This document shows, in pieces, positions 11,101 to 64,000 of a stretch of DNA of 64,000 nucleotides. The notes under the pieces were generated by a model that was not told where the DNA came from, ran no database searches, and was given only the letters and a program-made list of their open reading frames with translations. Made by a program: the position numbers and the translations under genes. Origin of the DNA: Heptranchias perlo (lineage: Eukaryota); the NCBI RefSeq assembly GCF_035084215.1, contig NC_090338.1:57164001-57228000 (forward strand), in the 5' to 3' direction. The number at the start of each line of letters is the position of its first letter. Positions within the stretch are counted from its first letter, which is position 1.

Positions 11101-14100
11101 TGGCTACCTTGATCACCTATAATCAGATTATTCACAGTCTATGCAAATGAATATAAAATACTTTCATATCAGAGATTAGAAGATAACTTGTAATATCTGG
11201 GACTTGTAGACTGACCTTCAGTTGCATTTGAAGTGATATGGTCACCATGGTCTGTGGTAAGGGACACAGCAGAGGGTAGAGGAGTCAGTGTGCTGATCTC
11301 TGTAATGGAAAAAGTATTACTTTCTTGTGCTCATGTTGGTGACAATATTAGCCATTCACACTCCCTGCTAAGTCACGTGTTTTAGCACCCATGAGTACTG
11401 GCAGCAAGCCACTTGTAAGTCTATATAAATGCTGCTCTTGAGATGGCGACTCAGATATGTAGAAGAGTGGGGTAGTAGCCCTCTTATTCTCTCTCCCTTT
11501 TGTGTGGCAGATGCTTGCCTCAGATCGGAATCTCATTTTGACAACATGTTCAAGACGAGGAAGACAATAAATCCAAAACCATGGAGCACATCCTTTTGTT
11601 CTCTGGTTTCAGACATCTTCTTAGGTTTAGATTTTTTCGGGCAGGTGAATTTCCATGGACAAGAAATTATGAATTTTTTTGCTTTTCTCAGCAGCCTGAT
11701 GGAACAATATTTGTCAATTCATTGCTAATTTGCACCAACTGGTAGACTGGCCTGTGGTGTGGACTAGTAGCTGGACTGAGACCCCCCCCAAAGTAATTCA
11801 CTAAAGACCATTCTAGCAGTACAGATAAAACACTTTCATCCCACCAATCTATAATGAATTACCACTGGAAGTGTGTTGTGGGACAGGGCAACCATCTGTT
11901 CAACTGAACCAGTGCTGACATTCGCAAATATTTCAGGGACAACTTCACTTAAATCATTAAGGTGGGCTCTCGGCAGTATTTTTACTTCTGACTGGGAACT
12001 TGTCACTATATTACAAAATAAAGAATATTCTCTGCTTCCCCACATCAGTAGACAATCTTGCTTGACTTAAACAAAACAAGTTGGGGGAAAAATTGGAAAG
12101 GGGCCGTTTTTGGGCATAGGTAGCGTGAGGTGCTATTACCCCGCGCCCAATGAACCCTGCGCAGGCAGGATGCAAGTTTCAGCACACCCCAGGACTTACC
12201 TGCAATCAGCATTCCATTACAGGCCTTGCATGTGGAATCAATGCAATTCGCACTTTCCACCTCCAGAGGGAGCTCAATCTCTTAAAGAGAGGATGTTTCT
12301 TAGAAATTTCTTAAAGGTAGCTGGTACCTGTTATTTGCTGAAAATAACAGTCTACTGTCTGCATGGAGTCCAAACAGAGATCAGACATCGCACACGTAAA
12401 ACACAGATGCAGATCCCATCCCTATGTTTACACACTGATGAGTTATGTTAAAACATTAAATAAAGGTTCGCACAACTAAATCCCACATCCTCCAATCTGC
12501 ACGCCAGACCTCACCAATCTGCCAATCTGAATTTGTACCAGGCCTGCGAGAGTGCATGCACCAAGGTTCCCTGCTGATGCACTAGAGACCTTGGGTGCAA
12601 GAGGTGGACAGAAGGAGGGACATCCTATATCCGCGCAGGGGGTGGGGTGCAAGAGGCCCTCCAGACATATACTCAAAAGGCAGTGGGAGGCAGCGGGGGA
12701 CGAAGTCAATGCCAGGCGCACAGCATCATGAACATGGATGCAGTGCAGGAAGAAGTTCAATGCTTTGACATGAGGTCAACTGTCAAGTGGTGTCTCCTAC
12801 CAACTGCACCACTCACCACACACCCCCATCCCCCATATACCAACAAACTCTTTCTATCAGTGCTCCACTCTTCCAATCAGATGCTTCCTCTCACTCTTAC
12901 ACATTACCACTGTTTCAAACCGCCCACCCACAACTCACAAGCCACACACACTGGCAGCTATTCAATCATGACAGGCACATCACCCAGACACATGTCCCGC
13001 TTTCTTGCAGGAGAAGGTGGCGCATGACAGGAGGCAGCAAGTGGCAGTGGCATTTAGCCCCTTGAGCCTGTTCCACCATTCAATGAGATTGTGGTAGACC
13101 TGTGACCTAACTCCGTATACCTGCCTTAGCCCCATATCCCTTAATACCCTTGGTTCACAGAAATCTATCAATCTCAGATTTAACATTCACAAGTGAGCTA
13201 GCATCAACTGCCGTCTGTAGAAGAGCGTTCCAAACGTCTCCCACCCTTTGCGTGTAGAAGCATTTTCTAACTTCACTCCCTGCACGTCCTTGCTCTAAAT
13301 GTTAGGCTATGGACCCGCGTCCTAGTATTGAAGTCTAGGAGACCTGCAGAAACAGTTACAAAGGTCTCAGCAGCAAGAAGTAATAATCCAGCCATTAATC
13401 TGTAAATCCTGCCTGGTCCCTTTAAATAGCACCAGGGGGGGTCCTCCGGGCACGTTCAAATGGTCAGGGTTAAGACTGTGCGTTGAGTTGAACGTTAAGT
13501 CCCAAAATGGTGTCTATCACTTTAAATCAGCGTTACACACTGATTAAAGACATTTTCTCCCTACTTTACATGATTCCAGCGTTCGTTATCTGCGCCTGCG
13601 CTAATTCCTATAACAAGATGGCGTCTGGCGCACATCACGCTGGAAACGTGCGTGCTCATCCAAGACGCCATCTTGGATGTCGGAGAGTCCATGTAGTGCC
13701 GAAACAATGGGTGCTACCAATTTAGCGCCCATTGTATCCTAACATCTGAGTCTCTGTGACAGCCCTCGTAACTTTCTCTTTTCAAAAGAAGCTGACTGTC
13801 AGTATTTGTTTCTGTTTCTGTTCTTATCTGCCTGTGTTCACAGCGAAAAGGGAAGGCCTATCAGATAACTCCTGCTGAGTGCCCAGGAACAGAGATTTCC
13901 TCACATTGTGGGCATGGGGTGTTTATCAAATAGTCAAGACAGGCTAACAAATTGTTTAATGTTTATGGTCTTTGGGGAACCACTTCAATGCTTTTCTCAT
14001 TAATATATTAATTACCCTCTGTCTCAGCGCTTTTATTTTAAGCTTGAGTGTATACACTTTCCTTTAAAAGCCCAACATTTAAACATAACTCTTTTCTAAA

Positions 14101-44310: not shown

Positions 44311-46397
44311 AGGTCCACTACCGCTCTGCAGGAAAAGCAAGGCAAAGCAGCACCTCCTTCCCCCACTTTACCAAACTCCCACACGTACCGAACTCTCAGC
44401 ACACTGTGTTGTCCTCACACCGTGCTGTCCGCACTGACAGGCCCCTGTATTTCTACAGTTGAGACTCAGATGAGTCAGGCCTGCCCCACCTTCAGGTACC
44501 AATTGAATCTAGCTAACCAATTAACTTGCTACAGCAGCTCTCTGCTGAAGCCAGACAGAAACTTAGAAATTTAAACTTTTAAATTGACCTTAAACAGTTG
44601 AAGCAATATGCACTAGATTTAAAGAGATTAACCCTTAAAGAGATTAACCCTTCAACTCCCACACGTACCGAACTCTCAGCACACTATGTTGTCCTCACAC
44701 CATCAGATTTATAGGGAATCAAATTCTTAAAATAACCAATATATGTTAACAATTTCACAAAAAAGATTATAATTAATTTTGAAATGCTCAGTGGAAACTA
44801 AAGGGGAGATTTTCAGTTACTGGGTCCTGATGCATATTGGGAATGTGTGCACCATTAAAATTAATGGATGGTAAATCACAGGCTGTGGGTGCACGATTCC
44901 CGATACACACTCCTGGCACGTGCATACACTGGCAGCACCAAAGTTAAAAATCTCCCATTAAAAGCTTTAAGAGGAGTTTCCCATGTCCATTGTAAGTGTG
45001 CAGTGCGGTGTGTATCAGTGGCACGACATGCTGCTGCCTCGAATTGTGGAAACAGTCCTCCGATTGGCAGCACGTTTTCTTGGGCTTGATGATGTTCTTG
45101 CTCAGACGGGTGGAGGATGAGCCTGGGTTGTGGGAAGATCACAGAACATTGCTGAACAGACATCATGTGCTTTGTTTGAAATGTGCAGGGTTTTACGCTG
45201 AGAAAAGCCTCAATCCTGACACAACGAAGGAAGTGCTTCAGCCATGAAAGTGGTTCATGTTGTTGGATATTTACCTGAGGATCAGAAAGGAGAATATTAA
45301 AGTTAAACCACTCATCCACTGACTGAAGCTCACAATATAGTCATATTCGAGTAATACAGCACAGTAAAACACAGAAAACAGAAAACACATTTGTCGTTTG
45401 AATTGCGTATCTAAATGAGCAGAGATGGACACTCAGACGCCTTCAGATCTGGACAATGATCTTGGTAAATTCAGATCTAAGCTGTAGCCACCAACGGTGC
45501 TAGTGGTGTGGGGTGTGTCTGTCTGTCTGGGGTGAGAGCAGGTGAGTTCAGCTTCCAGGTGTAGACCCTTTGTCAGAACACAGGCCTGGCGGGGAGGTGG
45601 GTGGGGGGGGGTAAACCTCCTCTGTACCCTCTCCGAGGCATTGACATACTTCCTAAAGTGTGGTGCCAGCTCCCACAAGGGCACTTATAGGCTCTACCGG
45701 CTGGAATTTCTGGCAGCAGGAGGCAGACGGGCACCAGAGGAGCACCCAAAGTGGCACTTTTACCCACCTGGCCTATGCTAATGAGGTGCTCTCCCACTGA
45801 CCCCACAAACCCCAGTAGTGTCATTGTTGGGGGACACCGTCAAGAGTGATCCTGATGTAATACTGGGATCGCAACCTGAGCAAATTTAGGGCCAATGTTT
45901 GGAGGTCACTTTGCAACAGGAGAGAGCCCCTTTAACACCTTCTTGCTAAAACATTGTTTCCTTAAGCAGACCTATTCTGAGGCATCATCGAAGGAGCGGT
46001 GTGGTCTGTAGAACCTGGTGGACGGGTCACTCCTAGTTGGTCATCTTCTTCTTTGTTACACCGTATCCCTGTGTACCTCTCTCATTTCCTCCTCCTCCTG
46101 CTCCTGTTCTGTCTCTATAATAAGGAACTCTATCGGAATGCCCCTAGTGAACTCCAGGGTAAGGGCTCCATGACAGAAGAGTGGAAACAAAAGATTTCCC
46201 TGCCTGAAAAGCACAGTTTAGAAAAGATATTTCTAATAGCTTCAGGGTCTATGGGTACAAACTGGTAAAAGACAAGTTCAGCACTGATGTCAGGAAGCAC
46301 TTCTTTACACACAGACTGATCAATACCTGGAATGGTATTGTGGGACCATACGTTTCCATGGCACAATGGACTAGAACCATCAAATGTCTTACCTTAC

Positions 46398-46407
46398 CTG
46401 CATTTAT
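46398..46407 (-). CDS. Gene B candidate microexon (YKC R)
   Basis: Acceptor ttacttcaccaag, 131 nt after the TM donor; tandem donors GTAAG GTAAG. Position matches gene A exon 6. Confidence 0.45.
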
Positions 46408-49400
46408 CTTGGTGAAGTAAAGGACTTTCATTGCAGACTCATACCATCAAACGCCATGTGAAAAATAAAGGCGACTGTAAAAAAATCTTATCAAAGTGTT
46501 TTCAGGCTTAAGACAAATTATTAAATCATCGCACTTACATTTCCATTGGCAGAGGAGCACAGTGATTGCGATGAAACAGATTAAAACTGAAACACGAGCA
46601 GCCAACAGAATAGGAGAAATCAGTCTGCTAACCAGCATTTCTGGTACCTGAAGCACAGAAACAGAATCAGAGAACAGAAATCTTCCTTGCAATATGAAAA
46701 CAAATAAATATCAGTGTAAGGATGTCAACTTACAAATCAATACGGAACATAGTGTTATTCATTAACCTTTGAACATTACTTGGGACCATGTTATCGCCAG
46801 CATCTTGAGTTTAATATGAACCAGCTGAACTGAGCATAACTGTTCGAGTTTATACCAAGTACCCCTCATGACATTCTGCCACACCAGTCTCACTTCGATG
46901 TAACACAATTTCTCTTATCCCATTCTTATCAAGCTGGATTTTCAATGAATCCACCCCAGAAGGTATGGAGCGGGACCTCTGCCCACCGTCACCTTGGCTC
47001 AGTTTCCTGGGTCAGGGGTCATGAATATGCAGTGGTGGATTCCTGGTGGGATCCCTGCCAGCAACAGGGAGTCTGCTGTTTCATACCACAAAAATTTGGT
47101 TGGTGCTGCTCTATTTTAGCTGTTGTTTGGTAGTTGATGGCTCATCCCGAGATTCTTTTTCCCTTAACTCATGGGTCTCAGTCCCTATTGTCCATTTATC
47201 AGATGCAAGGTTGAGCAGGGGCAGGAGTTGGAGCTCGGAGGAGGAGGTGTGATTTGAGTAGAAAGTAAATAGCTGTGAACGTAGTTTTGCAGAAGAGACC
47301 ACATAAAGTTGGCATTTCCTGTCAAAAGCTTTGCAATGTCCAAGACAAGATGCATCAAAATGTTTATGTTCAGTTAGAATCATAGAAAGGTTACAGCACG
47401 GAAGGAGGCAATTCGGCCCATCGAGTCCACGCCTGCTCTATGCGAGAGCAATCCAGCTAGTCCCATTCCCCCGCCCTATCCCCGTAGCCCTGCAAATTTT
47501 TTCCTTTCAAGTATTATCCAGTTCCCTTTTGAAGGCCATGATTGAATCTGCCTCCACCACCCCCTCAGGCAGTGCATTCCAGATCCTAAACACTCACTGT
47601 ATAAAAAAGTACCTCCTCTTTCACCTTTGGTTCTTTTGCCAATCACTTTAAATCTATGTCCTCTGGTTCTTGACCCTTCCGCCAATGGGAAAAGTTTCTC
47701 TCTATCTATTCTGTCCAGTTCCTTCATGATTTTGAATCCCTCTATCAAATCTCCTCTCAACCTTCTCTGTTGCAAGGAGAACAACCCCAGCTTCTCCAGT
47801 CTATCCACGTAACTAAAGTTCCTCATCCCTGGAATCATTCTAGTAAATCTCTTCTGCACCCTCTCTAAGGCCTTCACATCTTTCCTAAAGTGCGATGCAC
47901 AGAACTGGACACAATACTCCAGTTGTGGCTGAACCAGTGTTTAATAGAGGTTCATCATGACTTCCATATTTCTATACTCTATGCCTCTATTTATAAAGCC
48001 CAGGATCCCGTATTTTTTTTAACTGCTTTCTCAACCTGCCCTGCCACCTTCAACGATTTGTGCGCATATACACCCGGATCTCTCTGTTCCTGTGCCCCTT
48101 TTAGAGTTGTTGTCTCTAGTTTATATTGCCTCTCCTCATTCTTCCTACCGAAATGTATCACTTTGCATTTTTCTGCGTTAAATTTCATCTGCCACGTGTC
48201 CGCCCATGCCACCAGCCTGTCTATATCCTCTTGAAATCTATCACTGTCCTCCTCACTGTTTACTAACCTTCCAAGTTTTGTGTCATCTGCAAATTTGGGA
48301 ATTGCGGCCTGTACAACCAAGTCCAAGTCATTAATATATATCAAGAAAAGCAGTGGTCCCAGCACCGACCCCTGGGGAACACCACTGTACACCTTCCTCC
48401 AGTCCGAAAAACAATTATTCACCACTACTCTGTTTCCTGTCCCTTAGCCAATTCTGTATCCATGTTGCTACTGCCCCCTTTATTCCATGGGCCGCAATCT
48501 TGATGATAAGCCTACCGTATGGCACTTTATCAAACAGCTTTTGAAAGTCCATTTATACCACATCAACTGCAATGCCCTCAGCTACCCTTTCTGTTACCCT
48601 ATCAAAAAAAATTCTTTCAGGTTAGTTAAACAAGAATTGCTTTTAACAAATCCATGCTGGATTTCTCATGTCAATCCACACTCGTCCATGTGACTGTTAA
48701 TTCTGTCCCGGATTATCATTTCTAAAAGTTTCCCCACCACTGACGTTAAACTGACTGGCCCATAGTTACTGGGTTTATCCTTACACCCTTTTTTGAACAA
48801 GGGTATAACATTTGCAATTCTCCAGTCCTCTGGCACCACCCCCTGTATCGACAGATGTTTGGAAGATTATGGCCAGTACCTCTGCAATTTCCACCCTTAT
48901 ATCCCTCAGCAACCAAGGATCCATCCCATCTGGACCGGGAGACTTATCTGCTTTAAGTACAGATAGCCTTTCAAGTACCTCTTCCTTATCAATTTTTAGC
49001 CCATCCAGTAGCTCAACTATATCTTCCTTTACTGATACTCTGGCAGCATCCTCTTTCTCGGTAAAGACAGATGCAAAGTACTCATTTAATACCTCGGTCA
49101 ACCCCTCTGCCTTCATGAGTAGATCTCCTTTATGGTCCCTAATTGGCCCCACCCCTCCTCTTACTACCCGTTTACTGTTTACATGCCTGTAGAAGGCTTT
49201 TGGATTCCCTTTTATGTTGGTCGCCAGTCTATTCTCATACTCTCTCTTTGCTCCTCTTATTTCCTTTTTCACTTCCTCTCTGAACTTTCTACATTCTGCC
49301 TGGTTCTCACTTGTATTATCAACCTGACATCTGTCATACGCCCATGTTTTCTGCTTCATCTTACTCTCTATCTCTTTCGTCATCCTGGGAGCTCTGCTTA

Positions 49401-51519
49401 AATGCAGAAGTTGCTAGGATGACTGGCTGGAGAGGCACTGCCTTGAATGAGATGTGCAGGATGTCTATTCTAATTTTCTCTTGCCACAGAGATTTAGCTG
49501 CAGTCTTTGAATGGCTGTGCTCTTTCCTGAATTTGGGAAATATTCATCTTATTATCACATAAATACTGATTCTAGATTTATTGTTGAAATCTCTGTTGAA
49601 TATCATGGGCTATGATGAATGTACAGGATGCAGAAGGTGATGCAGTACAGTGTAATATACACAGATATTCTGTGGAAATGTGCTCCTTGTAATTGTTACA
49701 GTGATTGTGGATTGTACATGGGCAGGTATATTAGAGAGATTTCTAAATAATGTGTGAGTATATTAGAGAGGTTTTTAAACAGTAAATGTATGAGTATATT
49801 ATAGAGATATTTAAATAGTAAATGTGTGAGTATATTAGACAGAATAAGAGTGAATTACTTATATAATGTGTTATAATACATCGCACTCCCTTGTTCCCTT
49901 AAACTACTCCCACATGATCCCCCAAAGCATCACATAACCAGCACTCACTCCCAAACATCACATCCTCTCACTTACCACCACCAGGACCACTTCATTTCTA
50001 CTCCCTTATATGACCCTGACTTCCTATCAGCAATACGACAGGAGATCTACCAGTAACACGTAAATACAGAGGCAACTGAAGCGCAAGTACTGAGTCCTTA
50101 ATAAAAGTTTACAAACACATCGATGTTATATCATTTCTGTTCTGAGAAAAGGGAATTGCTCACAGTTGAAAGTGGTGTTTGAGTCGAATTCCGGTCAGTT
50201 GGTGAGGTGGGCAGTGAATTAGTGTAAGAAGTAATCCTGTTACCTATAAGAAACAGAACAAAAAAAAAGTGTTCAAGTTAAAATGACTCTTATCCAGAAA
50301 TCTAGTCTAGTTGCCATCTCTTCATCCACACAACGATGAGGTATCTCTGGACTTGGGGGAACCAGGGAGCTCACCAGGTTCTTATCTCAATGGGCAATTG
50401 CAATCAATGGCTGGGTTAGATGGGACAGCTCCTGCAGACATATCCTTCATTTGACAGGATTATTCATCACCATTCCACAGAGCCAGAGCAAATTCACCTT
50501 CAACTGAACAAATCTAGTTAAGGTGAGCCTCTTTTTTAATGCATGTAGTCAAGTACTGGGATGTATCACAGGAGCACATGATTATAAGTGAAATTATTGC
50601 TGTATTAACAACTCATTGGCAAGGCCACAATACAGCTTTTGGTTGTCCTTTCTTGAAAAGCATTCAGCTACTCTGTTTCACAAGAATGGTCAGTTGTCAG
50701 TTGTCACCTGGATGAAGTCATTTGAACTTTCATCCCTCTGCCCACTGATGCTCCAGCCAGTTCATAGTGTTTTGATCTTACATTAAAATTCATGCTAGCA
50801 ATTAGCATGTGTGACCTATAAAATTATTACTTGAGATTAATTCACAGTGAGTATTTCTGGTATTAAAGAAAGCTTCCACCAAATTTAATGTTAAACGTCC
50901 AATTTTGTTTTCTTTCTCTGTGGAAAATTTGCTAAAAATCAGATCAGTTGGGGAGGACCAAGGGACATGAGTTTAAACCATGGAACAGTAGGAATTGACT
51001 GGATGTTTGAAGGTTCTTCTTTTCCCAGAGATTTGTGAGCCTCTGGAATACCTTGCCGGCTGGTGTGGTGGGAGCTGACTCTCTGCCTTCAAGAGGGAAC
51101 TGGACCAGTTCTTGACTGGGGCAGAGATCGCATCATATAGAAGGTAAGTGTATTTACAGATAATACTTGGTCCATGTGATGTCCTGGAATGGTTTCGATC
51201 GCCTGAGGGGGTCGGAGAGGAATTTTACAGAGTATTTTTCCCTTATTGGCCCGGGGTTTTTTCTCTGTATTTTTGCCTCTCCCTGGAGACTGATTACATG
51301 GCTGCGGGGGTGAATGGGAAGTGAGGAAGAAGTGTTGGCTGTGATGGTCCATTCATCATGGTGTGGGGCAGACTGGATGAACCAGTTGGTCTTTCCTGAC
51401 CCTCAATTTTGTATGTTCATATGTTTGTCTGAATTTCTTCTCACTTCGATTGTTATGCTTACCATGTTCACTAGTATGGGTCACATCAGTGAATGGTGGA
51501 ATCATTACTAGGGAAAGAT
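46398..51519 (-). CDS. TIM-family paralogue gene B, 3' exons only: join(51519-51463, 50243-50164, 46647-46539, 46407-46398...); 5' exons probably beyond 64000, last exon uncertain
   Basis: Same exon-phase series as gene A (stalk 1-1, stalk 1-0, 109-nt TM exon 0-1, microexon 1-2), same strand, canonical splice sites. TIM identity is inferred from architecture and position because no IgV exon is visible. Confidence 0.7.
46539..46647 (-). CDS. Gene B transmembrane exon (VPEMLVSRLISPILLAARVSVLICFIAITVLLCQWK)
   Basis: cttcag acceptor, GTAAG donor, 109 nt phase 0-1, identical in length and phase to the gene A TM exon. Confidence 0.82.
47378..49395 (-). mobile_element. CR1 LINE, 5'-truncated, in gene B intron
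   Basis: [34 protein letters not shown]. Confidence 0.9.
49555..49840. repeat. Inverted homologue of the 5' part of gene A intron 2 (20194->~19900), including the 36-bp satellite
   Basis: tcacataaatac.gattctagatttattgt...gatgaatgtacaggatgcagaaggtg.tgcagtacagtgt matches the reverse complement of 20085-20194. Confidence 0.85.
50164..50243 (-). CDS. Gene B stalk exon (GNRITSYTNSLPTSPTDRNSTQTPLST)
   Basis: Long pyrimidine tract and atag acceptor, GTGAG donor, 80 nt phase 1-0, S/T/P-rich. Confidence 0.78.
51463..51519 (-). CDS. Gene B stalk exon (xLSLVMIPPFTDVTHTSEH)
   Basis: tttcacag acceptor, G|GTAAG donor, 57 nt phase 1-1. Confidence 0.65.
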
Positions 51520-51724
51520 CTGTGAAAGATGAAATTAATATTACTCATAATCACATCAGCAACTAGTTAAATATTTAAAACTATAGTGACCTACAGTTCT
51601 ACCAAAATTATTCATACTTGTCAGACCTAAATATCTGTTCAAATATTTTCTTCTGATATTTGTCTGTATTGATATTTAGGTTTTGTGGAGGGATCAGTTA
51701 AAGTGATATATGACTTACGGAGGC

Positions 51725-52330
51725 ATAAAATCATACCGCATACAAGGAGGCCATTTGGCCCATCGTGCCTGTGCCTGCTCTTTGAAATAACTATCCAATT
51801 AGTCCCAATCCCCTGCTCTTTCCCCATAGCCCAACATTTTTTTCCTTTTCAAGTAAATATCCAATTCCCTGTTGAAAGTTACTGTTGAATCTGCTTCCAC
51901 CACCCTTTCAGGCAATGCATTTCAGATCGTAACAACTCACTGTGTAAAAAAAAATTCTCCTTATCTCCTCCCTGGTTCTTTTGCCAATTATCTTAAATCT
52001 GTGTCCTTTGGTTACCGACCCTCCTGCCAGTGAAAACAGTTTTTCCCCAACGACTCTATCGAAACCCCTCATGATTTTGAACACCTCTATTAAATCTCCC
52101 CTTAACCTTCTTTGCTCTAAGGAGAACAAACCCAGCTTCTCGAGTCTCTCCACATAACTGAAATCCCTTATCCCTGGTATAATTTCCTCTGCACCCTCTT
52201 CAAGGCCTTGACACCCATCCTTCGTGGTGCCCAGAATTGGACACAATACTCCAGCTGAGGCCGAACCAATGATTTATCAAGGTTTAGCATAACTTCCTTG
52301 TTTTGTACCCTATGTCTGTTTACAAAGCCA
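51725..52330 (-). mobile_element. CR1 3' fragment
   Basis: ERLEKLGLFSLEQRRLRGDLIEVFKI..GHRFKI. Confidence 0.85.
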
Positions 52331-52443
52331 AAAGTCATAAAATCATGTCACCAACCTCCACTCCTAGATTTCATCTCCGTCTCTGTGACTAACGTAAGGA
52401 ATCTTACAACACCAGGTTATAGTCCAACAAATTTATTTTAAAA

Positions 52444-52481
52444 TCACAAGCTTTCGGAGATTATCCCCTTCGTCAGGTGAA
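52444..52481 (-). ncRNA. Minimal hammerhead ribozyme (P3 inverted arm)
   Basis: Reverse complement reads ttcac-CTGACGA-a-gggga(taa)tctcc-GAAA-gc-tt-gtga. Confidence 0.8.
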
Positions 52482-54285
52482 TGAGTGAAAAGGTTCTCAA
52501 ATCGCATATCTTATACTAGGCTGGGACAGCATCACACCAATCAAAAGATGTCGTTGTTATTCAAACAGGCCAGTCACGGAGAACAGCACGTCCCAGTACA
52601 CTGGATATACATTGTGTCAATTACACAGACAGACAGAAAGAAACCCAAATGGCAGAGAGAGAGAGAGAATATTAAAAACATAACTTTTTTTTCCCCTTTT
52701 TGCTGGTGGGGTTACGTGTAGCGTGACATGAACCCAAGATCCCGGTTGAGGCCGTCCTCATGGGTGCGGAACTTAGCTATCAACTTCTGCTCGACGATTT
52801 TGCGTTGTCGTGTGTCTCGAAGGCCGCCTTGGAGAACGCTTACCCAAAGATCAGTGGCTGAATGTCCTTGACTGCTAAAGTGTTCCCCGACTGGGAACAC
52901 TTTAGCATGGTCTCGCCAATCGAGCACGACTTCTTCACTGCACAGGACCTCCAACCAACGCTATACACCAGATACATCGATGACATTTTCTTCCTATGGA
53001 CCCACGGCGAAGAATCACTGAAGAGACTACACGATAACATCAACAAGTTCCATCCCACCATCAAACTCACCATGGACTACTCCTCAGAATCGGTTTCATT
53101 CTTGGACACACAAATCCCCATCAAAGACGGGCACCTCAGCACATCACTCTACCGCAAGCCCACGGACAACCTCACGATGTTCCACTTTTCCAGCTTCCAC
53201 CCCAACCACGTTAAAGAGGCCATCCCCTATGGACAGGCCCTACGAATACACAGGATCTGCTCAGACGAGGAGGAACGCGATGGACACCTACAGACGCTGA
53301 AAGACGCCCTCGTAAGAACGGGATATGACGCTCGACTTGTCGATCGACAGTTCCGACAGGCCACAGCGAAGAATCGCATAGACCTCCTCAGAAGACAAAC
53401 ACGGGACTCAACCAACAGAGTACCCTTCGTCGTCCAGTACTTCCCCGGAGCGGAGAAACTACGCCATGTTCTCCGCAGCCTTCAACATGTCATCGATGAA
53501 GACGAACACCTTGCTAAGGCCATCCCCACACCTCCACTACTCGCCTTTAAACAGCCACCCAACCTCAAACAGACCATCGTTCGCAGCAAGTTACCCAGTT
53601 TTCAGGAGAACAGCGTCCACGACACCACACAACCCTGCCACGGCAACCTCTGCAAGACATGCCAGATCATCGACACGGATACCACCATCACACGAGAGGA
53701 CACCACCCACCACGTACATGGTTCATACCCCTGTGACTCGGCCAACGTTGTCTACCTCATACGTTGCAGGAAAGGATGCCCCGGAGCATGGTACATTGGC
53801 GAGACCATGCAGACACTGCGACAACGGATGAACGGACACCACGCAACAATCGCCAGACAGGAGGGTTCCCTCCCAGTCGGGGAACACTTTAGCAGTCAAG
53901 GACATTCAGCCACCGATCTTCGGGTAAGCGTTCTCCAAGGCGGCCTTCGAGACACACGACAACGCAAAATCGTCGAGCAGAAGTTGATAGCCAAGTTCCG
54001 CACCCATGAGGACGGCCTCAACCGGGATCTTGGGTTCATGTCACGCTACACGTAATCCCACCAGCAAAAAGGGGAAAAAAAAGTTATGTTTTTAATATTC
54101 TCTCTCTCTCTCTGCCATTTGGGTTTCTTTCTGTCTGTCTGTGTAATTGACACAATGTATATCCAGTGTACTGGGACGTGCTGTTCTCCGTGACTGGCCT
54201 GTTTGAATAACAACGACACCTTTTGATTGGTGTGATGCTGTCCCAGCCTAGTATAAGATATACGATTTGAGAACCTTTTCACTCA

Positions 54286-54323
54286 TTCACCTGACGATGG
54301 GGATAATCTCCGAAAGCTTGTGA
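54286..54323 (+). ncRNA. Minimal hammerhead ribozyme (P3 forward arm)
   Basis: ttcac-CTGACGA-t-gggga(taa)tctcc-GAAA-gc-tt-gtga. Confidence 0.78.
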
Positions 54324-55179
54324 TTTTAAAATAAATTTGTTGGACGATTACCTGGTGTTGTAAGATTCCTTACATTTGTCCACCCCAGTCCATCACCGGC
54401 ATCTCCACATCTGTGACTAACGGCAGCGTAAGATGAAGGGCACACTCTAAATACACACAATCTTAATTCTTCTCCTGCTGCACTGGCTGAGTGGTGTAAG
54501 TAGAGACACAAACCACAATTTCCAGAGATTGATCTCCACTGCAAAACCTTACGTGGATGAAGAAGATGTGGGCCTCGAATTTTTATGTTGCTTTTTTTAG
54601 TTCTAATCTTAGTAAACCATAACCAGTTTTCAAACACAGTTTGTTAATTGGAGTACTCTTTGAGGGTCTGAGGTGTCACTTTTGGCTTTTGCTGAATTTA
54701 ATTCCATTTTCTCTCTGCAAACTTTAGGATTCTGTGATTGAAGTGTAGGAACCGCAACCTTCTCCAGTCAGCCCAGAGACACCATGATCATTTGTGAACT
54801 GAAGCCTTTTACATGCCTATAATAAACCTAATGGCTTAAGACCCTCATGCCAGCAGTGCCAAGTCCAATCCACCCTTAAGCCCCGCTATTGACAATAACA
54901 GACTTGGATGTGTCCGTGTAAGAGTATAAAAGGGGCAATGTATCCACAGAGAGCAAAGGCCGAGCAAGTGTCAGTCCGTGTCCCTCGTTGCCAGTGTGGC
55001 CGTGGTTCATCTGTAGCTCCATCTTTATTGTAATGACTGGCTCCACTCGCACACCTAATAATGCCAATATAATTAACAAGGGTATAAACCTGCACTTTGC
55101 CTGGTGCTCTGCACCACACAGTCAAGTGACCAATACCTCTCAGGGTTGTACAATGGGTTCTGTCCATTCATCATATCAG

Positions 55180-58100
55180 GGTACGTTAGCATCGTGGTTA
55201 TGTTACTGGACTAATAATCCAAAGGCCTCGGCTAATAATCCAAGAACATGAGTTCGAAACCCGTCATGGCAGCTGGGGAATTTGAATTCAGTAAATTAAA
55301 TAAAATCTGGAATAAAAAGCTGGTATCAGTAATGGTGACCGTGAAACTACCGGATTATTGAAAAAACCCATCTGGTTCACTAATGCCCTTTAGGGAAGGA
55401 AACCTGCCGTCCTTACCTTGTCTGGCCAAATGTGACTCCAAACCCACAGCAATGTGGTTGATTCTTAACGGCCTAGCAAGCCACTCAGTTGCACAATCCC
55501 AGTACAAAAAGTCATAGTAAGAATAAAACCTGACGGACCACCGGACAAGACAAAGGGAAACCAAGCCCAGTCGACTCTGCAAAGTCCTCCTCACTAACAT
55601 CTGTGGGACTTGTGCCAAAATTGGGACAGCTGTCCTGCAGACCAGTCAAGCAACTGCCTGACATAGCCATACTCACAGAATCATACCTTTCAGTCAACGT
55701 CCCAGACTCCTCCATTACCATCGCTGGGTACGTCCTATCCAACTGGTAGGACAGACCCACCAGAGGTGGCGGCACAGTGGGATACAGTCAGGAGGGAGTG
55801 GCCCTGGGAGTCCTCAACATTGATTCCAGACCCCATGAAGTCTTCTGGCATCAGTTCAAACATGGGCCAAGGAAACCTCCTCCTGATTACCACCTACCGC
55901 CCTTCCTCAGCTGATGAATCAGTCTTCCTCCATGTTGAGCACTACTTGGAGGAAGCACTGAGGGTAGCAAGGACACAGAATGTACTCTGGGTGGGGGACT
56001 TCAATGAACATCACTATGAGTGGCTCAGTAGCACCACTACTGACCGAGCTGGCCGAGTCCCGAAGGACATAGCTGCCGGATTGGGCCTGTGGCAGGTGGT
56101 GAGAGAACCAACATGAGGAAAAAACCAACTTGACATTGTCCTCACCAATCTACCTGTGCAGATGCATCTGTCCATGACAGTATTAGTAGCAGTGACCACC
56201 GCACAGTCCTTGTGGAAACGAAGTCTAGTTTTCATACTGAGAACACCGTCCATTGTGTTGTGTGAAAAAACCACCGTGCTAAATGGGATAGACTCAGCAC
56301 AGATCTAGCAGCTCAAAACTGGGCATCCATGAGGCACTGTGGGCCACTAGCAGCAGCAGAATTGTATTCCAGCACAATCTGTAACCTCATGGCCTGGCAT
56401 ATCCCTCAATCTACCATTATCAACAAGCCAGGGGATCAACCCTGGTTCAATGACGAGTGTAGAAGAGCATGCCAGGAGCAGCACCAGGCAGTACCTAAAA
56501 ATGAGGTGCCAACCTGGTGAAGCTACAACACAAGACTACATGCATGCAAAACAGCAGAAGCAGCATGCTATAGACAGAGCTAAGTGATCCCACTACCAAC
56601 AGATCAGATCAAAACTCTGCAGTCCTGCCACATCCAGTCATGAATGTTGATGGACAATTAAACAACTAATGGGAGGAGGAGGCTCCATGAACATCCCCAT
56701 CCTCAATGATGGCAGAGTCCAGCACATGAGTGCAAAAGACAAGGCTGAAGCGTTTGCAACCATCTTCAGCCAGAAGTGCTGAGTGGATGATCCATCTCGG
56801 CCTCCTCCCAAGATCCCCATCTTCACCGAAGCCAGTCTTCAGCCAATTTGATTCACTCCACATAATATCAAGAAATGGCTGACAGCACTAGATACAGCAA
56901 AGGCTACGGGCCCCGACAACATCCCGGCTATAGTGCTGGAGTCTTGTACTTGAGAATTAGCTATGCCTCTGGCCAAGCTGTTCCAATATAGCTACAACAC
57001 TGGCATCTACCCGACAAAATGGAAAATTGCCCAGGTATGTCCTGTCCACAAAAAGCAGGACAAATCCAATCTGGCCCATTACTGCCCCATCAGTCTAATC
57101 TCAGTCATCAGCAAAGTGATGGAAAGTCAACAGTGCTATCAAGCAGCACTTACTCACCAATAATCTGCTCACCGATTTGCGTTCCACCAGGACCACTTGG
57201 CTCCAGACCTCATTACAGCTTTGGTCCGAACATGGACAAAAGAGCTGAATTCCAGAGGTGAGGTGAGAGAGACTGCCCTTGATATCAAGGCAGCATTTGA
57301 CCGAGTGTGGCACCAAGGAGTCCTAGTAAAATTGAAATCAATGGGAATCAGGGGGGAAACCCTCCAGTGGCTGGAGTCATACCTAGCACAAAGGAAGACG
57401 GTAGTGATTGTTGGAGGCCAATCATCTCAGCCCAAGGACATCACTGCAGGAGTTCCTCAGGGCAGTGTCCTAAGTCCAACCATCTTCAACTGCTTCATCA
57501 ATGACTTTCCCTCCATCATAAGGTCAGAAGCAGGGATGTTCCCTAATGATTGCACAGTGTTCAGTTCCATTCACAACCACTCAGATAATGAAGCAGTCCG
57601 TGCCCGCATGCAGCAAGACCTGGACAACATCCAGGCTTGGGCTGATAAGTGACAAGTAACATTATCATCAGACAAGTGGCAGGCAATGACCATCTCCAAC
57701 AAGAGAGAGTCTAAACACCTCCCCTTCACATTCAGTGGCATTACCATTGCCGAATCCCCCATCATCAACATCCTGGGAGTCATCATTGACCAGAAACTTA
57801 AGTGGACCAGCCACATAAATAATGTGGCTACAAGAGCAGACTGCTAAGGGAAGCAAGGGAGGAAATAGTGGAGGCTCTGACCATAATTTTCCAATCCTCC
57901 CTCGCTACAGGCGTGGTGCCAGGGGATTGGAGGACTGCTAATGTTGCACTATTGTTTAAAAAGGGAGAAAGAGATAGGCAGAGTAATCATAGGCCAGTCA
58001 GTCTAAGCTCGGTGGTGGGCAAATTATTGGAATCGACTCTGAGGACAGCATAAATCGTCATTTAGAAAGGCATGGGTTAATCAAGGACAGTCAGCATGGA

Positions 58101-59965
58101 TTTGTTAAGGGAAATTCGTGTCTGACTAACTTGATTGAATTTTTTGAGCAGGTAACAAGGAGCGATGAGGGTAACGTGTTTGGTGTAGTCTACATGGATT
58201 TTAGCAAGGCTTTTGACAAGGTACCACACAGCAGACTGGTCAAAAAAGTAAAAGTTCATGGGATCCAAGGGAAAGTGGCTAGTTCGATCCAAAATTGGCA
58301 GGAAGCCAAGGGTAATGGTTGACGGGTGATTTTGTGACTGGAAGGCTGTTTCCAGTGGGGTCCCACAAGGCTCAGTACTAGGTCCCTTGCTTTTTGTGGT
58401 ATATATTAATGATTTGGACTTGAATGTGGGGGGGCTTGATCATGAAGTTTGCAGATGATACAAAAATTGGCCATGTGGTTGATAGTGAGGAGGAAAGCTG
58501 TGGACTGCAGGAAGATATCAATGGACTGGTCAGATGTGCAGAAAAGTGGCAAATGGAATTCAATCCAGAGAAGTGGGAGGTAATGCATTTGGGGAGGGCA
58601 AACAATGCAAGGGAGTACACAATAAATGGGAGGATACTGAGAGGTGTAGAGGAACAAAGGGACCTTGGAGTGCATGTCCACAGATCCCTGAAGGTAACAG
58701 GATAGTTAGACAAGGTGGTTCAAAAGGCATATGGGATACTTTCCTTTATTAGCCAAGGCATAGAATATAAAAGCAGGGAGGTTATGCTAGAACTGTATAA
58801 AACACTGGTTAGGCCACAGCTTGAGTACTTGAGTTCTGGTCACCACATTACAGGAAGGATGTAATTGCACTACAGAGGGTACAGAGGAGATTTACGAGGA
58901 TGTTACCAGGGCTGGAGAATTTTAGCCATGAGAAAAGATTGGATAGGACGGGGTTGTTTTCTTTGGTACAAATGAGGCTGAGGGGAGATTTAATTGAGGT
59001 ATATAAAATTATGACGGGACGAGATAGAGTGGATAGGGGGAGCAGAGGGGTCAGTGACAAGAGGGCATAGATTTAACGTAATTGATAGAAGGATTAGAGG
59101 GGAGCTGAGGAGAATTCTTTTCACCCAGGAGGTGGTGGGGGTCTGGAACTCATTGCCTGAAAGGGTGGTAAAGGCAGAAACCCTCAACTCATTTAAAAAG
59201 TACTTGGATGAGCACTTGAAATGCCGTAACCTACAGGGCTACGGACTAAGTGCTGGAAAGTGGGATTAAGCTAGATAGCTCTTTTTCGGCCAGCACGGAC
59301 ACGATGGGCCAAATGGCCTCCTTCTGTGCTGTAACTTTCTTTGATTCTATGATTCTAGGTCAGAGGCTGGGTATTCTGTGGTGAGTGACTCACCTCCTGA
59401 CTCCCCAAAGCATTTCCATCATCTACAAGGCACAAGTCAAGAGTTTAATGGAATACTCTCCACTTGCCTGGATGAGTGCAGCTCCATCAAAACTCAAGAA
59501 GCTCGACACCATCCAGGACAAAACAGCCCGCTTGATTGGCACCCCATCCACCACCTTAAACATTCACTCCCTCCACTACCGGTGTAGCATGGCTGCAGCG
59601 TGTACCATCTACAAGATGCACTGCAGCAACTCGCCAAAGCTTCTTCGACAGCCCCTCCCAAACCCGTGACCTCTACCACCTAGAAGGCCAAGAGCAGCAG
59701 GCGCATGGGAACAACACCACTTCCACGATTCCCTCCAAGTCACACCATCCTGACTTGGAAATATATCGCCGTTCCTTCATTGTCGCTGGGTCAAAATCCT
59801 GGAACTCCCTACCTAACAGCAATGTGAGAGTACCTTCACCACACAGACTGCAGCGGTTCAAGAAGGCGGCTCACCACCACCTTCTCAAGGGCAATTAGGG
59901 ATGGGTAATAAATGCTGGCCTTGCCAGCGATGCCCACATCCCATGAATGAATAATAAAAAAAAGG
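55180..59965 (+). mobile_element. Apparently full-length, degenerate LINE family B with a tRNA-like 5' head; CR1 inserted at 57840-59357
   Basis: A-box-like TAGCATCGTGG (55187) and B-box GTTCGAAAC (55252). Endonuclease starts at ~55590. RT motifs follow, and the 3' end is ...cccatgaatgaataataaaaaaaa. Confidence 0.85.
57840..59357 (+). mobile_element. CR1 LINE, 5'-truncated, nested in LINE family B
   Basis: DWRTANV, DFSKAFDKVPH, KFADD and a (GATTCTAT)-type tail. The host sequence gctacaagagca|ggtcagagg rejoins across it. Confidence 0.9.
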
Positions 59966-61291
59966 GCAGGAGTCTCAGAATCTGGTGTTGTGATCTACAG
60001 GATCTGATATGTTTAAATATCTAGATATAGGTCAGGCTCAGTTGGCAGCTCTCTAGCTGCTGAGTAGAAGCTCAACCCCCACTCCAGGACTTCACCCATA
60101 TTCTAGCCCAACACTTCAGCGCAGTACGAAGGGAATGCTGCTATTGTTGGAGCTGCTTTGTTTCAGAATTAAACATTAAACCACAGACCCATCTGGCAGT
60201 TCAGAAGCATGTAAAAGATGCCACATTTGAAAAAGAGTCAAGAGTTTTCCTGGTGCCCTGGCCAACATTCTGCCCTCAACCAACATCACCAAGAAAAAAA
60301 ACAAATTGACTGATTATTCTTCTCATTTGCTGTTTGCAGGATCTTGCTTTGGGCGATTGCCGATATAGGAATAGTGTCTGCACTTCACAAATAATTTGTG
60401 GTTAGTAAGCACTCTTGGCTGTCCTCGAAAGGTGATAAGGTGCTATATTAATGGGAGTACTTTCTTTCTAAATCATACCAATTTTAAATACTCTTCAGAT
60501 CATTTTAGCACCAATTCATCATTATTTGATTTCAATGCAGATATTTTAGTATTTTGCAGTGAAATGTCCTCCATTACATGGCTACTTTGTCAGCAGGCAG
60601 ACAGAACCTCCAAGAAAACAGGTGAGATCAATTTATTTTCGGTCTCCGCTGTTTCTGCAGACTTGACTTGAAGCAGAGTTTCCATCCATCTCTGACAAGG
60701 CTGGGGCAGGGACTCCCTAAGACCTGAGTTCCCAGACCTGACTCTGGATGGCGACTCAGCGTATCCGTGGCAGCTGGTACACCAGGAAATATGTGGTGTA
60801 CCAACCTCTAAAAAAGCTCAAGTGGGCCCCAACAGTGGCGTTATTATGACATGATGTGTGATTTTAAAAAGTCTCTCTAAAATAACCGCTCATTTGCAGT
60901 TTAATAACCTCTCTAATTTACACACATTCATTTTTTAAAAACCTTTCCAATGTACTCACACATTCATTGTTTAAAAACCTCTCTAATATACTCACACATT
61001 TACCATTTAAAACCCTCCAATATACTCACAAATTTACTGTTTAAAAACCTTTAATATACTCACATTTACTGTTTCAAAATCTCACAAATATACGCATACA
61101 TTTATTGCTTAAAAACCTTTCTATTATACTCACTTTAAAAACCTCTCTAATATACTCACACATTTGTTGCTTAAAAACCATCCTGACTTGGAAATATATC
61201 CATGATGTGGAGATGCCAGTGATGGACTGGGGTTGACAATTCTAAACAATTTTACAACACCAAGTTATAGTCCAACAATTTTATTTGAAAA

Positions 61292-61329
61292 TCACAAGCT
61301 TTCGGAGGCTTCCTCCTTCCTCAGGTGAA
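61292..61329 (-). ncRNA. Minimal hammerhead ribozyme (P4 inverted arm)
   Basis: Reverse complement reads ttcac-CTGAGGA-a-ggagg(aag)cctcc-GAAA-gc-tt-gtga. Confidence 0.8.
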
Positions 61330-62302
61330 TGTGGAAATGAAATCCTCGAACCTTTCGCATTTATAAATCACAGAACAATACCTGGTGATTACAGATAGTC
61401 TTTCCAACTGCCCGTTGCCAAGGCAATCAAAGTGTTCAGAAAGAGAGGTGTTACCTACAGGGCCACCGAATATACAATGACAACGAACACCTCGCTATGG
61501 CCATCCCCACACCTCCACAACTCGCCTTTAAACAGCCACCCAACCTCAAACAAACCATCGTTCCCAGCAAATTACCTAGCTTTCAGGAGAACAGCGTCCA
61601 CGACACCACACAACCCTGCCACGGTAACCTCTGCAAGACATGCCAGATCATCGACACAGATACCACCATCACACGAGAGGACACCACCTACCAGGTGCAT
61701 GGTTCATACTCCTGTGACTCGGCCAACGTTGTCTACCTCATACATTGCAGGAAAGGATGCCCTAGAGCATGGTACATTGGCGAGACCATGCAGACGCTGC
61801 GACAACGGATGAACGGGCACCGCGCAACAATCGCCAGACAGGAGGGTTCCCTCCCAGTCAGGGAACACGTCAGCAGTCAAGGATATTCAGCCACCGACCT
61901 TCGGGTAAGCGTACTCCAAGGCGGCCTTCGAGACACACGACAACTCAAAATCGTCGAGCAGAAATTGATAGCCAAGTTCCGCACCCATGAGGACGGCCTC
62001 AACCGGGATCTTGGGTTCATGTCACGCTACACGTAACCCCACCAGTGAACAAAAGTTATCTGTTTTTAATATAACGGGTCATTTGCTGTCTTTCTCTTCC
62101 TTCCGGATGTTTCTATGTTTCTGCCTCTCTCTCTCTCTGTTTTTTTTTGGTTGTTTGTATATTCGGTGGCCCTGTAGGTAACACCTCTCTGTCTGAACAC
62201 TTTGATTGCCTTGGCAACGGGCAGTTGGAAAGACTGTCTGTAATCACCAGGTATTGTTCTGTGATTTATAAATGCGAAAGGTTCGAGGATTTCATTTCCA
62301 CA

Positions 62303-62340
62303 TTCACCTGAGGAAGGAGGAAGCCTCCGAAAGCTTGTGA
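62303..62340 (+). ncRNA. Minimal hammerhead ribozyme (P4 forward arm)
   Basis: ttcac-CTGAGGA-a-ggagg(aag)cctcc-GAAA-gc-tt-gtga. Confidence 0.8.
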
Positions 62341-63499
62341 TTTTCAAATAAAATTGTTGGACTATAACTTGGTGTTGTAAAATTGTTTACAATTGGGAAT
62401 ATATCACCGTTCCTTCATTGTCGCTGGGTCAAAATCCTGGAACTCCCTACCTAACAGCACTGTGGGAGAACCTTCACCACACGGACTGCAGCGGTTCAAG
62501 AAGGCGGCTCACCGCCACCTTCTCAAGGGCTATTAGGGATGGGTAATAAATGCTGGCCTTGCCAGCGATGCCCACATCCCATAAATGAATAATAAAAAAA
62601 AGGGCAGGAGTCTCAGAATCTGGTGTTGTGACCTACAGGATCTGATAAGTTTAAATATCTAGATATCGGTCAGGCTCAGTTCGCAGCTCTCAAGCTGCTG
62701 AATAGAAGCTCAACCCCCACTCCAGGACTTCACCCATATTCTAGCCCAATGCTTCAGCGCAGTACGAAGGGAATGCTGTATTGTTGGAGCTGCTTTGTTT
62801 CAGAATTAAACATTAAACCACAGCCCCATCTGCCAGTTCAGAAGCATGTAAAAGATGCCACATTTGAAGAAGAGTCAAGAGTTTTCCTGGTGCCCTGGCC
62901 AACATTCTGCCCTCAACCAACATCACCAAGAAAAAAAACAAATTGACTGATTATTCTTCTCATTTGCTGTTTGCAGGATCTTGCTTTGGGCGATTGCCTA
63001 TATAGGAATAGTGTCTGCACTTCACAAATAATTTGTGGTTAGTAAGCACTCTTGGCTGTCCTCGAAAAGTGATAAGGTACTATATAAATCTAAGTACTTT
63101 CTTTCTAAATCATACCAATTTTAAATACTCTTCAGATCATTTTAGCACCAATTCATCATTATTTGATTTCAATGCAGATATTTTAGTATTTTGCAGTGAA
63201 ATGTCCTCCATTACATGGCTACTTTGTCAGCAGGCAGACAGAACCTCCAAGAAAACAGGTGAGATCAATTTATTTTCGGTCTCCGCTGTTTCTGCCGACT
63301 TGACTTGAAGCAGAGTTTCCATCCATCTCTGACAAGGCTGGGGCAGGGACTCCCTAAGACCGGAGTTCCCAGACCTGACTCTGGATGGCGACTCAGCGTA
63401 TCCGTGGCAGCTGGTACACCAGGAAATATGTGGTGTACCAACCTCTAAAAAAGCTCAAGTGGGCCCCAACAGTGGGGTTATTATGACATGATTTGTAAT

Positions 63500-64000
63500 T
63501 TTAAAAAGTCTCTCTAAAATAACCGGTCATTTGCAGTTTAAAAACCTCTCTAATATACTCACACATTTACCGTTTAAAACCCTCTAATATACTCACAAAT
63601 TTACTGTTTAAAAACCTCTAATATACTCACATATACTGTTTAAAAACCTCTCGAATATACTCACACATATATTGCTTGAAAATCTCACCAATATACTCAA
63701 AAATAAACTGTTTAAAAATCACTAAAATACACTCACACATTTATTGATTAAAAACCTCTCTAATATACTCACACATTTATTCTTTAAAAACCTCTCTAAT
63801 ATACTCACACAATTATTATATAGAAACCTCTCTAATATACTCACACATTTATTGTTTAAAAACCTCTCTAATATACTCACACATTTATTATATAGAAACC
63901 TCTCTAATATACTCACACTTATTATTTAAAAACCTCTCGAATATACTCACACATTTATTATTTAGAAACATTTAATATACTCACACATTTATTATTTAGA
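63500..64000. repeat. ~36-bp satellite array running off the window end
   Basis: (acacatttattgtttaaaaacctctctaatatactc)n. Confidence 0.9.

What the first reader, a model, noticed from the sequence alone, without database searches (positions are those of the whole stretch)
46393..51519. Candidate activating TIM paralogue with an intramembrane arginine, next to a tyrosine-tailed TIM: a possible paired-receptor system
Seen: gene B repeats the exon and phase architecture of gene A, including a 109-nt TM exon, but its TM reads ILLAA-R-VSVLICFIAITVLLC, and the simplest splice ends the protein at QWKYKCR*. Gene A has an uncharged TM and an EENVY tail. Established: an Arg near the outer end of the TM, about 15-16 residues before the cytoplasmic boundary, is the hallmark of FcR-gamma-coupled activating receptors (LILRA, FcalphaRI, GPVI, OSCAR, NKp46); human TIM-1/3/4 are not described as signalling this way. 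Inference: this cluster may encode a TIM pair, one signalling through its own Tyr and one through an ITAM adaptor. TIM identity of gene B is inferred because its IgV exon is not in the window.
Basis: partly seen in the sequence, partly recalled or inferred. Interest (0 to 1): 0.78.

Follow-up and report, generated by a model that had tools for sequence, protein, structure and literature searches.

The report
Shark TIM receptors form on/off-style pairs
Sharks and rays carry two kinds of TIM immune receptor that keep an almost identical recognition domain but different membrane ends, one with its own tyrosine tail and one with a conserved membrane arginine and almost no tail that likely signals through a borrowed activating partner chain, a design not described for mammalian TIMs in the papers searched.

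Summary
Confirmed and extended. The window holds a shark TIM cluster (NCBI models of the same contig name Heptranchias perlo). Gene B's missing IgV exon lies 1.1 kb beyond the window and is identical to gene A's (0 of 348 nt differ). RNA contigs splice B's TM exon to a last exon at 45274, so the tail is QWKCKYPTT*, not QWKYKCR*. The TM arginine is invariant in 13 of 13 B-type shark/ray proteins and absent from 11 of 11 tyrosine-tailed A-type proteins; 8 species hold both. TM exons group by type (100/100), whereas IgV domains group by lineage (B-clade rejected, p-AU 5e-65): repeated homogenisation of the ligand domain, the signature of paired receptors. A third copy, gene C, lacks stalk exons; an out-of-frame IgV-to-TM transcript predicts a soluble IgV or decay. 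Adaptor binding is inferred, not shown; CD3-zeta was the only intact zeta/FcR-gamma-family gene found in this genome. A's tail is not an ITIM, so 'inhibitory' is unproven. New variant of a known kind.

The parts
45255..45274 (-). Gene B last exon, coding part (C-K-Y-P-T-T-stop); 3' UTR runs on to at least 44700
   Evidence: RNA joint in X1, X2, X4; strong acceptor and NCBI model P0003
46539..46647 (-). Gene B transmembrane exon, 109 nt, phase 0 to 1
   Evidence: identical copy in gene C
46594..46596 (-). Arg197 codon inside the predicted TM helix
   Evidence: invariant in 13 of 13 B-type proteins
50164..50243 (-). Gene B stalk exon 2 (80 nt, S/T-rich, one N-glycan sequon)
   Evidence: covered by X4 contig joined to TM exon
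51463..51519 (-). Gene B stalk exon 1 (57 nt)
   Evidence: NCBI model P0003; X4 bin depth and contig length fit it (inferred)
51520..64000 (-). Gene B intron between IgV and stalk exon 1, running off the window. Beyond the window lie B's IgV exon (L001:1123-1470; window-equivalent 65470-65123) and leader (66235-66184), and gene C (leader 90315-90264, IgV 90040-89693, no stalk exons, TM exon 76909-76801 identical to B, last exon 75471; all window-equivalent)
   Evidence: IgV-to-TM RNA joint in X1, X2
21295..21346 (-). Gene A leader exon (coding)
   Evidence: A-type leader letters in X4 contig
20234..20581 (-). Gene A IgV exon, six-cysteine TIM type, FG loop AGMFND; 0 of 348 nt differ from gene B
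19828..23349 (-). 3.5-kb tract shared by genes A and B (95.9% with gaps): promoter side, leader, IgV; nothing downstream is shared
11216..11299 (-). Gene A stalk exon 1 (84 nt)
   Evidence: IgV-to-this-exon loose ends in X1, X2, X3; P0031
6809..6870 (-). Gene A stalk exon 2 (62 nt, phase 1-0)
5464..5572 (-). Gene A transmembrane exon, 109 nt, uncharged
5274..5298 (-). Gene A cytoplasmic exon 1 (25 nt)
   Evidence: matches P0031
5102..5168 (-). Gene A last exon, coding part, AVEENVYSIK-stop

Best explanation
Gene B is an expressed TIM-family receptor whose IgV exon is identical to that of its tyrosine-tailed neighbour gene A, and whose conserved membrane arginine and nine-residue tail likely let it signal through an ITAM adaptor dimer, making A and B a likely paired-receptor system. 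Shown: the gene structures, the spliced tail, the identical IgV, the invariant Arg across sharks and rays, and the split history (IgV by lineage, TM by type). Inferred: both receptors bind the same ligand (predicted phosphatidylserine through the conserved FG-loop Asn-Asp); Arg197 pairs in the membrane with the Asp pair of a zeta-family dimer, most likely CD3-zeta, the only intact member found in this genome; A signals through phosphorylation of its EENVY tyrosine; recurrent gene conversion or unequal crossover keeps the IgV matched while the loops around the pocket change fast, as expected if pathogens exploit gene A. Gene C is a recent partial copy of B that lost the stalk exons and likely yields a soluble IgV or a decayed transcript.
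For: IgV A=B 0/348 nt, C 1/348; top 15 of 25 PDB hits are TIM-1/2/3/4, best E 1e-38; 6 Cys in 22 of 22 IgVs and FG loop ending N-D in 21 of 22. Arg invariant in 13 of 13 B-type, 15 residues before the end of the hydrophobic run; no charge in 11 of 11 A-type TMs; no YxxL/I/V in 13 of 13 B tails; EEN(V/I)Y in 11 of 11 A tails. TM tree: A and B each one side of a 100/100 branch. IgV tree: label needs 10 changes, at least 6 forced by starred branches; 13 of 13 B IgVs are closer to a same-order A (74-100%) than to an other-order B (60-70%); AU test rejects a B clade, p 4.7e-65. B TM exon is better conserved (22.1 of 36 identities) than A's (13.2). Arg lies inside every 19-, 21- and 23-residue window in 9 of 9 proteins tested. 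Arg, not Lys, in the N-terminal TM part marks FcR-gamma-class partners, and FcR-gamma is homologous to zeta (PMC1440944 passages). Shark zeta keeps the Asp 16 residues before its first Lys. Spliced RNA contigs for A and B.
Against: No binding or signalling data. FcR-gamma, the usual partner, was not found in this genome (searches score only the best candidates). The Arg sits at position 4-11 depending on the window, deeper than FcalphaRI's position 3. A's tail is not an ITIM (Tyr+3 is K, E or S), so opposite signalling is not shown. The full-length B transcript was seen in only 1 of 4 runs at depth 10.9; in two runs the TM exon was joined out of frame. All four runs are one sample and their RNA status is a guess by the tool. 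7 of the 13 B rows are myliobatiform rays, so the conservation counts are not independent. Most orthologues are automatic gene models.
Confidence: 0.72

Rival explanations
1. B is an adaptor-independent tethering or decoy receptor (like tail-motif-free TIM-4, recalled); the Arg serves homodimerisation, ER retention, or snorkels at the outer membrane face.
For: FcR-gamma not found; several other TM columns are as invariant as the Arg (L9, V21, F25, T29, L32, W35, K36), which could equally mark a homodimer face.
Against: Only 15 hydrophobic residues follow the Arg, so it falls inside all predicted windows; short motif-free tail plus TM basic residue plus a homogenised ligand domain is the described activating design (PMC3031540 passage; PMC5701461 and PMC2832619 abstracts).
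Confidence: 0.17
2. Both A and B are activating (A co-stimulatory like TIM-1), and the pair splits one ligand between two activating pathways or cell types rather than opposing each other. This is a variant of the best explanation and overlaps with it.
For: A's IgV is closest to TIM-1 in the PDB; its tail has no ITIM; phosphorylation of the TIM-1 tail feeds PI3K signalling (PMC8482821 passage).
Against: An EEN(I/V)Y motif also marks the inhibitory TIM-3 tail (recalled, no call); concerted evolution is typical of opposed pairs.
Confidence: 0.3
3. The identical IgV copies are an assembly artefact or a neutral recent duplication without selection for pairing.
For: B and C are 95-98% alike over several kb; 0 of 348 against about 2% in flanks is not by itself decisive once coding constraint is allowed for (my inference).
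Against: The same pattern recurs in 8 species of 5 orders (orders recalled) with independent assemblies; RNA contigs join the IgV to A's stalk and, separately, to B-type exons. An artefact could at most explain gene C.
Confidence: 0.04
4. The B-type TM exon was imported from an unrelated activating receptor family by exon shuffling rather than derived from the TIM TM exon.
For: A and B TM exons share only 4.8 of 36 identities on average; other shark families are noted to have Arg-TM exons (unchecked AI notes, a lead only).
Against: Same length (109 nt) and phases; ungapped score peaks at offset 0; no other copy of the exon found in this genome (only 2 candidates scored). Bears on origin only, not on function.
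Confidence: 0.15

Closest known systems
Mammalian TIM family (TIM-1/HAVCR1, TIM-3/HAVCR2, TIM-4)
   Same: Six-Cys IgV with MILIBS-type FG loop, S/T-rich stalk, single TM, tandem cluster; gene A has a Tyr tail (PMC8482821, PMC8303237 passages).
   Different: B has a TM Arg and a 9-residue tail; IgVs are homogenised between paralogues; stalk only about 45 residues. The 5 non-cartilaginous TIM rows returned (3 chicken, 1 lizard, 1 teleost) have uncharged TMs. That mammalian TIMs lack a TM basic residue is recalled.
Paired receptors kept alike by gene conversion: Siglec-11/16, Siglec-5/14, CEACAM1/CEACAM3
   Same: Adjacent genes, ligand-domain exon converted independently in each lineage, divergent signalling ends, secreted relatives (abstracts of PMC5701461 and PMC2832619; PMC4042635 seen in a search listing only).
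   Different: Partner A has no ITIM; B uses an N-terminal Arg rather than the central Lys of DAP12 partners; predicted ligand is a lipid.
FcR-gamma-coupled receptors (FcalphaRI; LILRA, GPVI, OSCAR, NKp46 recalled)
   Same: Type I protein, Arg in the outer half of the TM, short motif-free tail (PMC1440944 passages).
   Different: Arg about 3 residues deeper by window prediction; no N-x-x-R motif (motif recalled); TIM ectodomain; FcR-gamma not found in this genome.
CD300a/CD300c lipid-binding pair and skate MDIRs
   Same: Activating/inhibitory Ig-receptor families; CD300a/c bind aminophospholipids (recalled); MDIRs are activating/inhibitory receptors of skate (PMC3031540 passages).
   Different: MDIRs resemble CD300/TREM/pIgR; this IgV scores E 1e-38 to TIM-1 against 1e-11 to pIgR. 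The original MDIR paper was not read.

Membership tests
TIM family | IgV with six cysteines, closest to TIM IgVs | tested here: met
TIM family | MILIBS FG loop ending in Asn-Asp | tested here: met
   AGMFND aligns with TIM-1 PGWFND; N114/D115 essential in human TIM-1 (PMC8303237); Trp replaced by Met here
TIM family | Mucin-like stalk and single TM | tested here: met
   45-48 residues, 35-37% S/T; one TM
TIM family | Phosphatidylserine binding | not testable with these tools
   needs binding assay
TIM family | Position beside MED7/CYFIP2 as in mammals (recalled; supportive, not defining) | tested here: inconclusive
   MED7 and CYFIP hits on the same contig but at 2.5-2.8 Mb against 57.2 Mb
Paired receptors | Adjacent genes with near-identical ligand domain | tested here: met
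Paired receptors | Concerted evolution of the ligand domain, not of the signalling end | tested here: met
Paired receptors | One member inhibitory (ITIM) | tested here: not met
   A tail EEN(V/I)Yx(I/V) has K/E/S at Tyr+3 in 11 of 11; non-ITIM inhibition not excluded, so it works like a pair but is not a canonical ITIM/ITAM pair
Paired receptors | Expression in the same cells | tested here: inconclusive
   run X4 holds A-type leader letters and the B body contig; bulk contigs cannot show cells
FcR-gamma/zeta-coupled activating receptors | [quoted passage not shown] | tested here: met
   against PMC1440944; position 4-11 by window
FcR-gamma/zeta-coupled activating receptors | Short tail without signalling motif | tested here: met
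   9 residues; 0 of 13 B tails with YxxL/I/V, tails 9-53 residues
FcR-gamma/zeta-coupled activating receptors | Physical, Arg-dependent assembly with the adaptor | not tested
FcR-gamma/zeta-coupled activating receptors | Adaptor gene present in the organism | tested here: inconclusive
   CD3-zeta present; FcR-gamma and DAP10 not found, absence not shown; DAP12 not searched

The most novel reading that the evidence does not exclude
For the whole history of sharks and rays the TIM family has run as a paired system: a tyrosine-tailed phosphatidylserine receptor, a CD3-zeta-coupled activating twin whose IgV is repeatedly re-copied from it so that enveloped viruses using apoptotic mimicry trigger an ITAM response, and in this species a soluble IgV decoy. 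It would be the first adaptor-coupled TIM and a non-TCR client of zeta in a lineage where FcR-gamma may be missing.
Probability: 0.3. Interest if true: 0.82.

Novelty: new variant of a known kind. Interest (0 to 1): 0.66.

Why it matters
TIM proteins are checkpoint targets and entry factors for enveloped viruses, and how they signal is still argued over. A naturally occurring TIM with the same IgV but an adaptor-type membrane anchor would show that the family once used classic paired-receptor logic, gives a clean pair of constructs for separating ligand binding from signalling, and makes it testable whether apoptotic mimicry drove TIM evolution. It also points to CD3-zeta as a possible general adaptor in cartilaginous fish. 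The design principle itself is well known from other families, and unchecked scan notes suggest Arg-TM activating paralogues are common in shark receptor families, which tempers the surprise.

Tried and rejected
QWKYKCR* ending via a 46408 acceptor: rejected, RNA joints go to 45274. Read-through of the TM donor (CKCDDL...): no covering contig among those shown. In-frame alternative acceptor 7 nt into the TM exon, which would give gene C a stalk-less Arg receptor: not seen; the contigs use the first acceptor. Hidden stalk exons in gene C: none; its IgV-TM intron is almost all repeat. Complex prediction of B's TM with a zeta dimer: tool not available, nothing folded, no verdict. Profile search of the 50%-clustered library to survey holocephalan, bony-fish and tetrapod TIMs: never ran, machine busy, so the taxonomic limit of the Arg type is open. 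PDB search with the TM exon: 0 hits at E 10. No RNA holder listed on record; the four runs are guesses, though on the IgV stretch they show only exons and a GT-AG joint. Literature: 10 searches found no paper on shark TIM pairs or an Arg-TM TIM; several were swamped by unrelated papers, and most subscription papers are not held. Elephant shark genome paper PMC3964593: 0 hits for the adaptor and TIM terms in main text and in the one supplement held; its other supplements may bear on FcR-gamma. A TIM review by PMC id was not held. Earlier-findings look-ups by place, sequence and TIM words were empty.
Full report
Locus. The window is G000:C14:57164001-57228000. A search of the genome with gene A's IgV gave 8 matches; three lie in tandem on the minus strand of C14 (100%, 100%, 99% identity), one TIM-type exon at 45% lies on C40, and four are weak. 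NCBI models on a contig of the same length, named Heptranchias perlo, match genes A (P0031) and B (P0003) exon for exon. The IgV is Pfam V-set, and 15 of 25 PDB hits are TIM-1/2/3/4, best E 1.1e-38.

Gene structures. A: leader 21346-21295, IgV 20581-20234, stalk 11299-11216 and 6870-6809, uncharged TM exon 5572-5464, tail exons 5298-5274 and 5168-5102 ending AVEENVYSIK. B: leader and IgV just beyond the window (window-equivalent 66235-66184 and 65470-65123), stalk 51519-51463 and 50243-50164, TM 46647-46539, last exon 45274. The phase pattern from IgV to TM is the same in both. The IgV exons of A and B differ at 0 of 348 nt; the shared tract spans 19828-23349 with about 2% mismatch in the leader intron and 5' flank, and nothing downstream is shared apart from interspersed repeats. 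C, further upstream, has leader, IgV (1 of 348 differs), a TM exon identical to B's (0 of 109) and the same last exon, but neither stalk exon.

Transcripts. Four runs of one sample, guessed to be RNA, hold the IgV. On the leader-IgV stretch their contigs cover exons only. One X4 contig (824 nt, depth 10.9) runs last exon, TM, 80-nt exon; its remaining 90 letters fit 4 + 57 + 29 IgV letters and the bin over the 57-nt exon has depth, so a full B transcript is inferred there. IgV joined to A's stalk appears in X1, X2 and X3. In X1 (depth 81.6) and X2 (8.65) the IgV is spliced straight to the TM exon, out of frame, ending GTRNAG-stop. X1's UTR carries the gene C letter at 12 of 12 B-versus-C differences, but X2 and X4 are mosaics, and at the one C-specific IgV site all four runs read the A/B letter. 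Collapsed contigs or haplotype differences could explain this; exon skipping from B is not excluded. The stop lies 89 nt before the last junction, which would normally invite nonsense-mediated decay (rule recalled), so a soluble IgV is possible, not shown.

Orthologues. One search returned 30 proteins among 188 candidates (25 cartilaginous fish, 5 other vertebrates); searches added 14. I kept one row per apparent gene: 13 B-type and 11 A-type. Dropped: 13 isoform duplicates, 2 chicken isoforms and P0028 (no TM in the model); P0014 (Pristis, no TM in the model) entered only the first IgV tree, ungrouped, with 3 outgroup rows. Eight species hold both types (Heptranchias, Scyliorhinus, Chiloscyllium punctatum, Hypanus, Hemitrygon, two Mobula, Leucoraja); Heterodontus, C. 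plagiosum and Amblyraja showed only A, Mustelus only B; no holocephalan TIM came back. The Arg is in 13 of 13 B rows at the same register, 15 residues before the end of the hydrophobic run; 8 of 36 columns are invariant. All 11 A rows have uncharged TMs and EEN(V/I)Y; no B tail has YxxL/I/V. The 5 non-cartilaginous rows have uncharged TMs.

Concerted evolution. The TM-region tree splits A from B at 100/100 (42 columns, few for 24 rows). The IgV tree mixes them: 10 label changes, at least 6 forced by starred branches, no more clustered than shuffles. Every B IgV (13 of 13) is closer to a same-order A than to an other-order B, and holding B together costs 345 log-likelihood units (p-AU 4.7e-65; the labels were set from TM type before the tree). 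Stalks follow type in sharks (B of Heptranchias and Scyliorhinus 67%, against 29% to own A) but are 95% alike between skate A and B, so tract length varies. The most variable IgV columns lie in and just after the loop between Cys3 and Cys4 and just before the FG-loop glycine. This is the pattern described for Siglec-11/16 and CEACAM1/3 (abstracts).

Mechanism. PMC1440944 (passages) states that receptors using FcR-gamma carry an Arg in the N-terminal TM segment (position 3 in FcalphaRI, against the adaptor's Asp at 6), that type I DAP12 partners carry a central Lys, and that FcR-gamma is homologous to zeta. B's Arg falls inside all tested windows, at position 6 of the best 21-residue window in Heptranchias and 4-11 overall (recalled scales). 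The zeta-family profile found one intact locus, CD3-zeta on C11, and one broken fragment on C1; a search with the zeta exon found only itself; DAP10 was not found. These searches score few candidates, so absence is not shown. I commit to B assembling through Arg197 with a zeta-family dimer, probably zeta (inferred), and A signalling through its own Tyr (inferred; not an ITIM, direction unknown). Both keep the FG-loop Asn-Asp of the phosphatidylserine pocket of TIM-1 (PMC8303237 passages), and TIMs are used by enveloped viruses (PMC8482821 passages), which supplies a plausible, untested selective reason.

Novelty. Ten literature searches found no description; the library lacks most subscription papers. 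NCBI names these proteins only as HAVCR1/2 or TIMD4 homologues, or leaves them uncharacterised. Earlier scan notes describe Arg-TM paralogues in other shark families (unchecked). Verdict: a real, conserved, new variant of the paired-receptor kind within the TIM family; interest 0.66.

Noticed in passing
G000:C40:11783635-11800864 (L023:8635-8967, L025:3407-3571, L025:5661-5864): A fourth TIM-type IgV exon (45% to gene A, six Cys, GLFND) lies on the same strand 15 kb upstream of a GPS exon and 17 kb upstream of a 7tm_2 exon (Pfam E 7e-14 and 6e-11): possibly an adhesion GPCR with a TIM IgV at its tip. Splicing between them was not tested.
   Followed up: partly
window-equivalent 99900-106900 (L004-L005): Inverted fragments of gene B introns, including a 90%-identical copy of the 57-nt stalk exon with intact splice sites, upstream of gene C.
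   Followed up: partly
P0001 (Hypanus), P0002 (Mobula), P0004 (chicken TIM-4): Models with two tandem TIM IgV domains occur in both A and B types in rays; may be real or fused gene models.
   Followed up: no
P0007 (gene A isoform X2): An NCBI isoform uses an early donor in the IgV exon that removes the FG-loop MFND pocket while staying in frame.
   Followed up: no
L022 (G000:C1:111764533-111764583): Broken fragment resembling the zeta/FcR-gamma TM exon (26.4 bits, followed by a stop); could be a decayed family member.
   Followed up: partly
G000:C14:2.5-2.8 Mb: MED7 and CYFIP-family exons are on the same contig but 54 Mb from the TIM cluster.
   Followed up: partly
window 47140-49400, 51600-64000: Abundant interspersed repeats fill gene B's introns and, where reads were laid (to 52000), are heavily represented in the contigs.
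   Followed up: no
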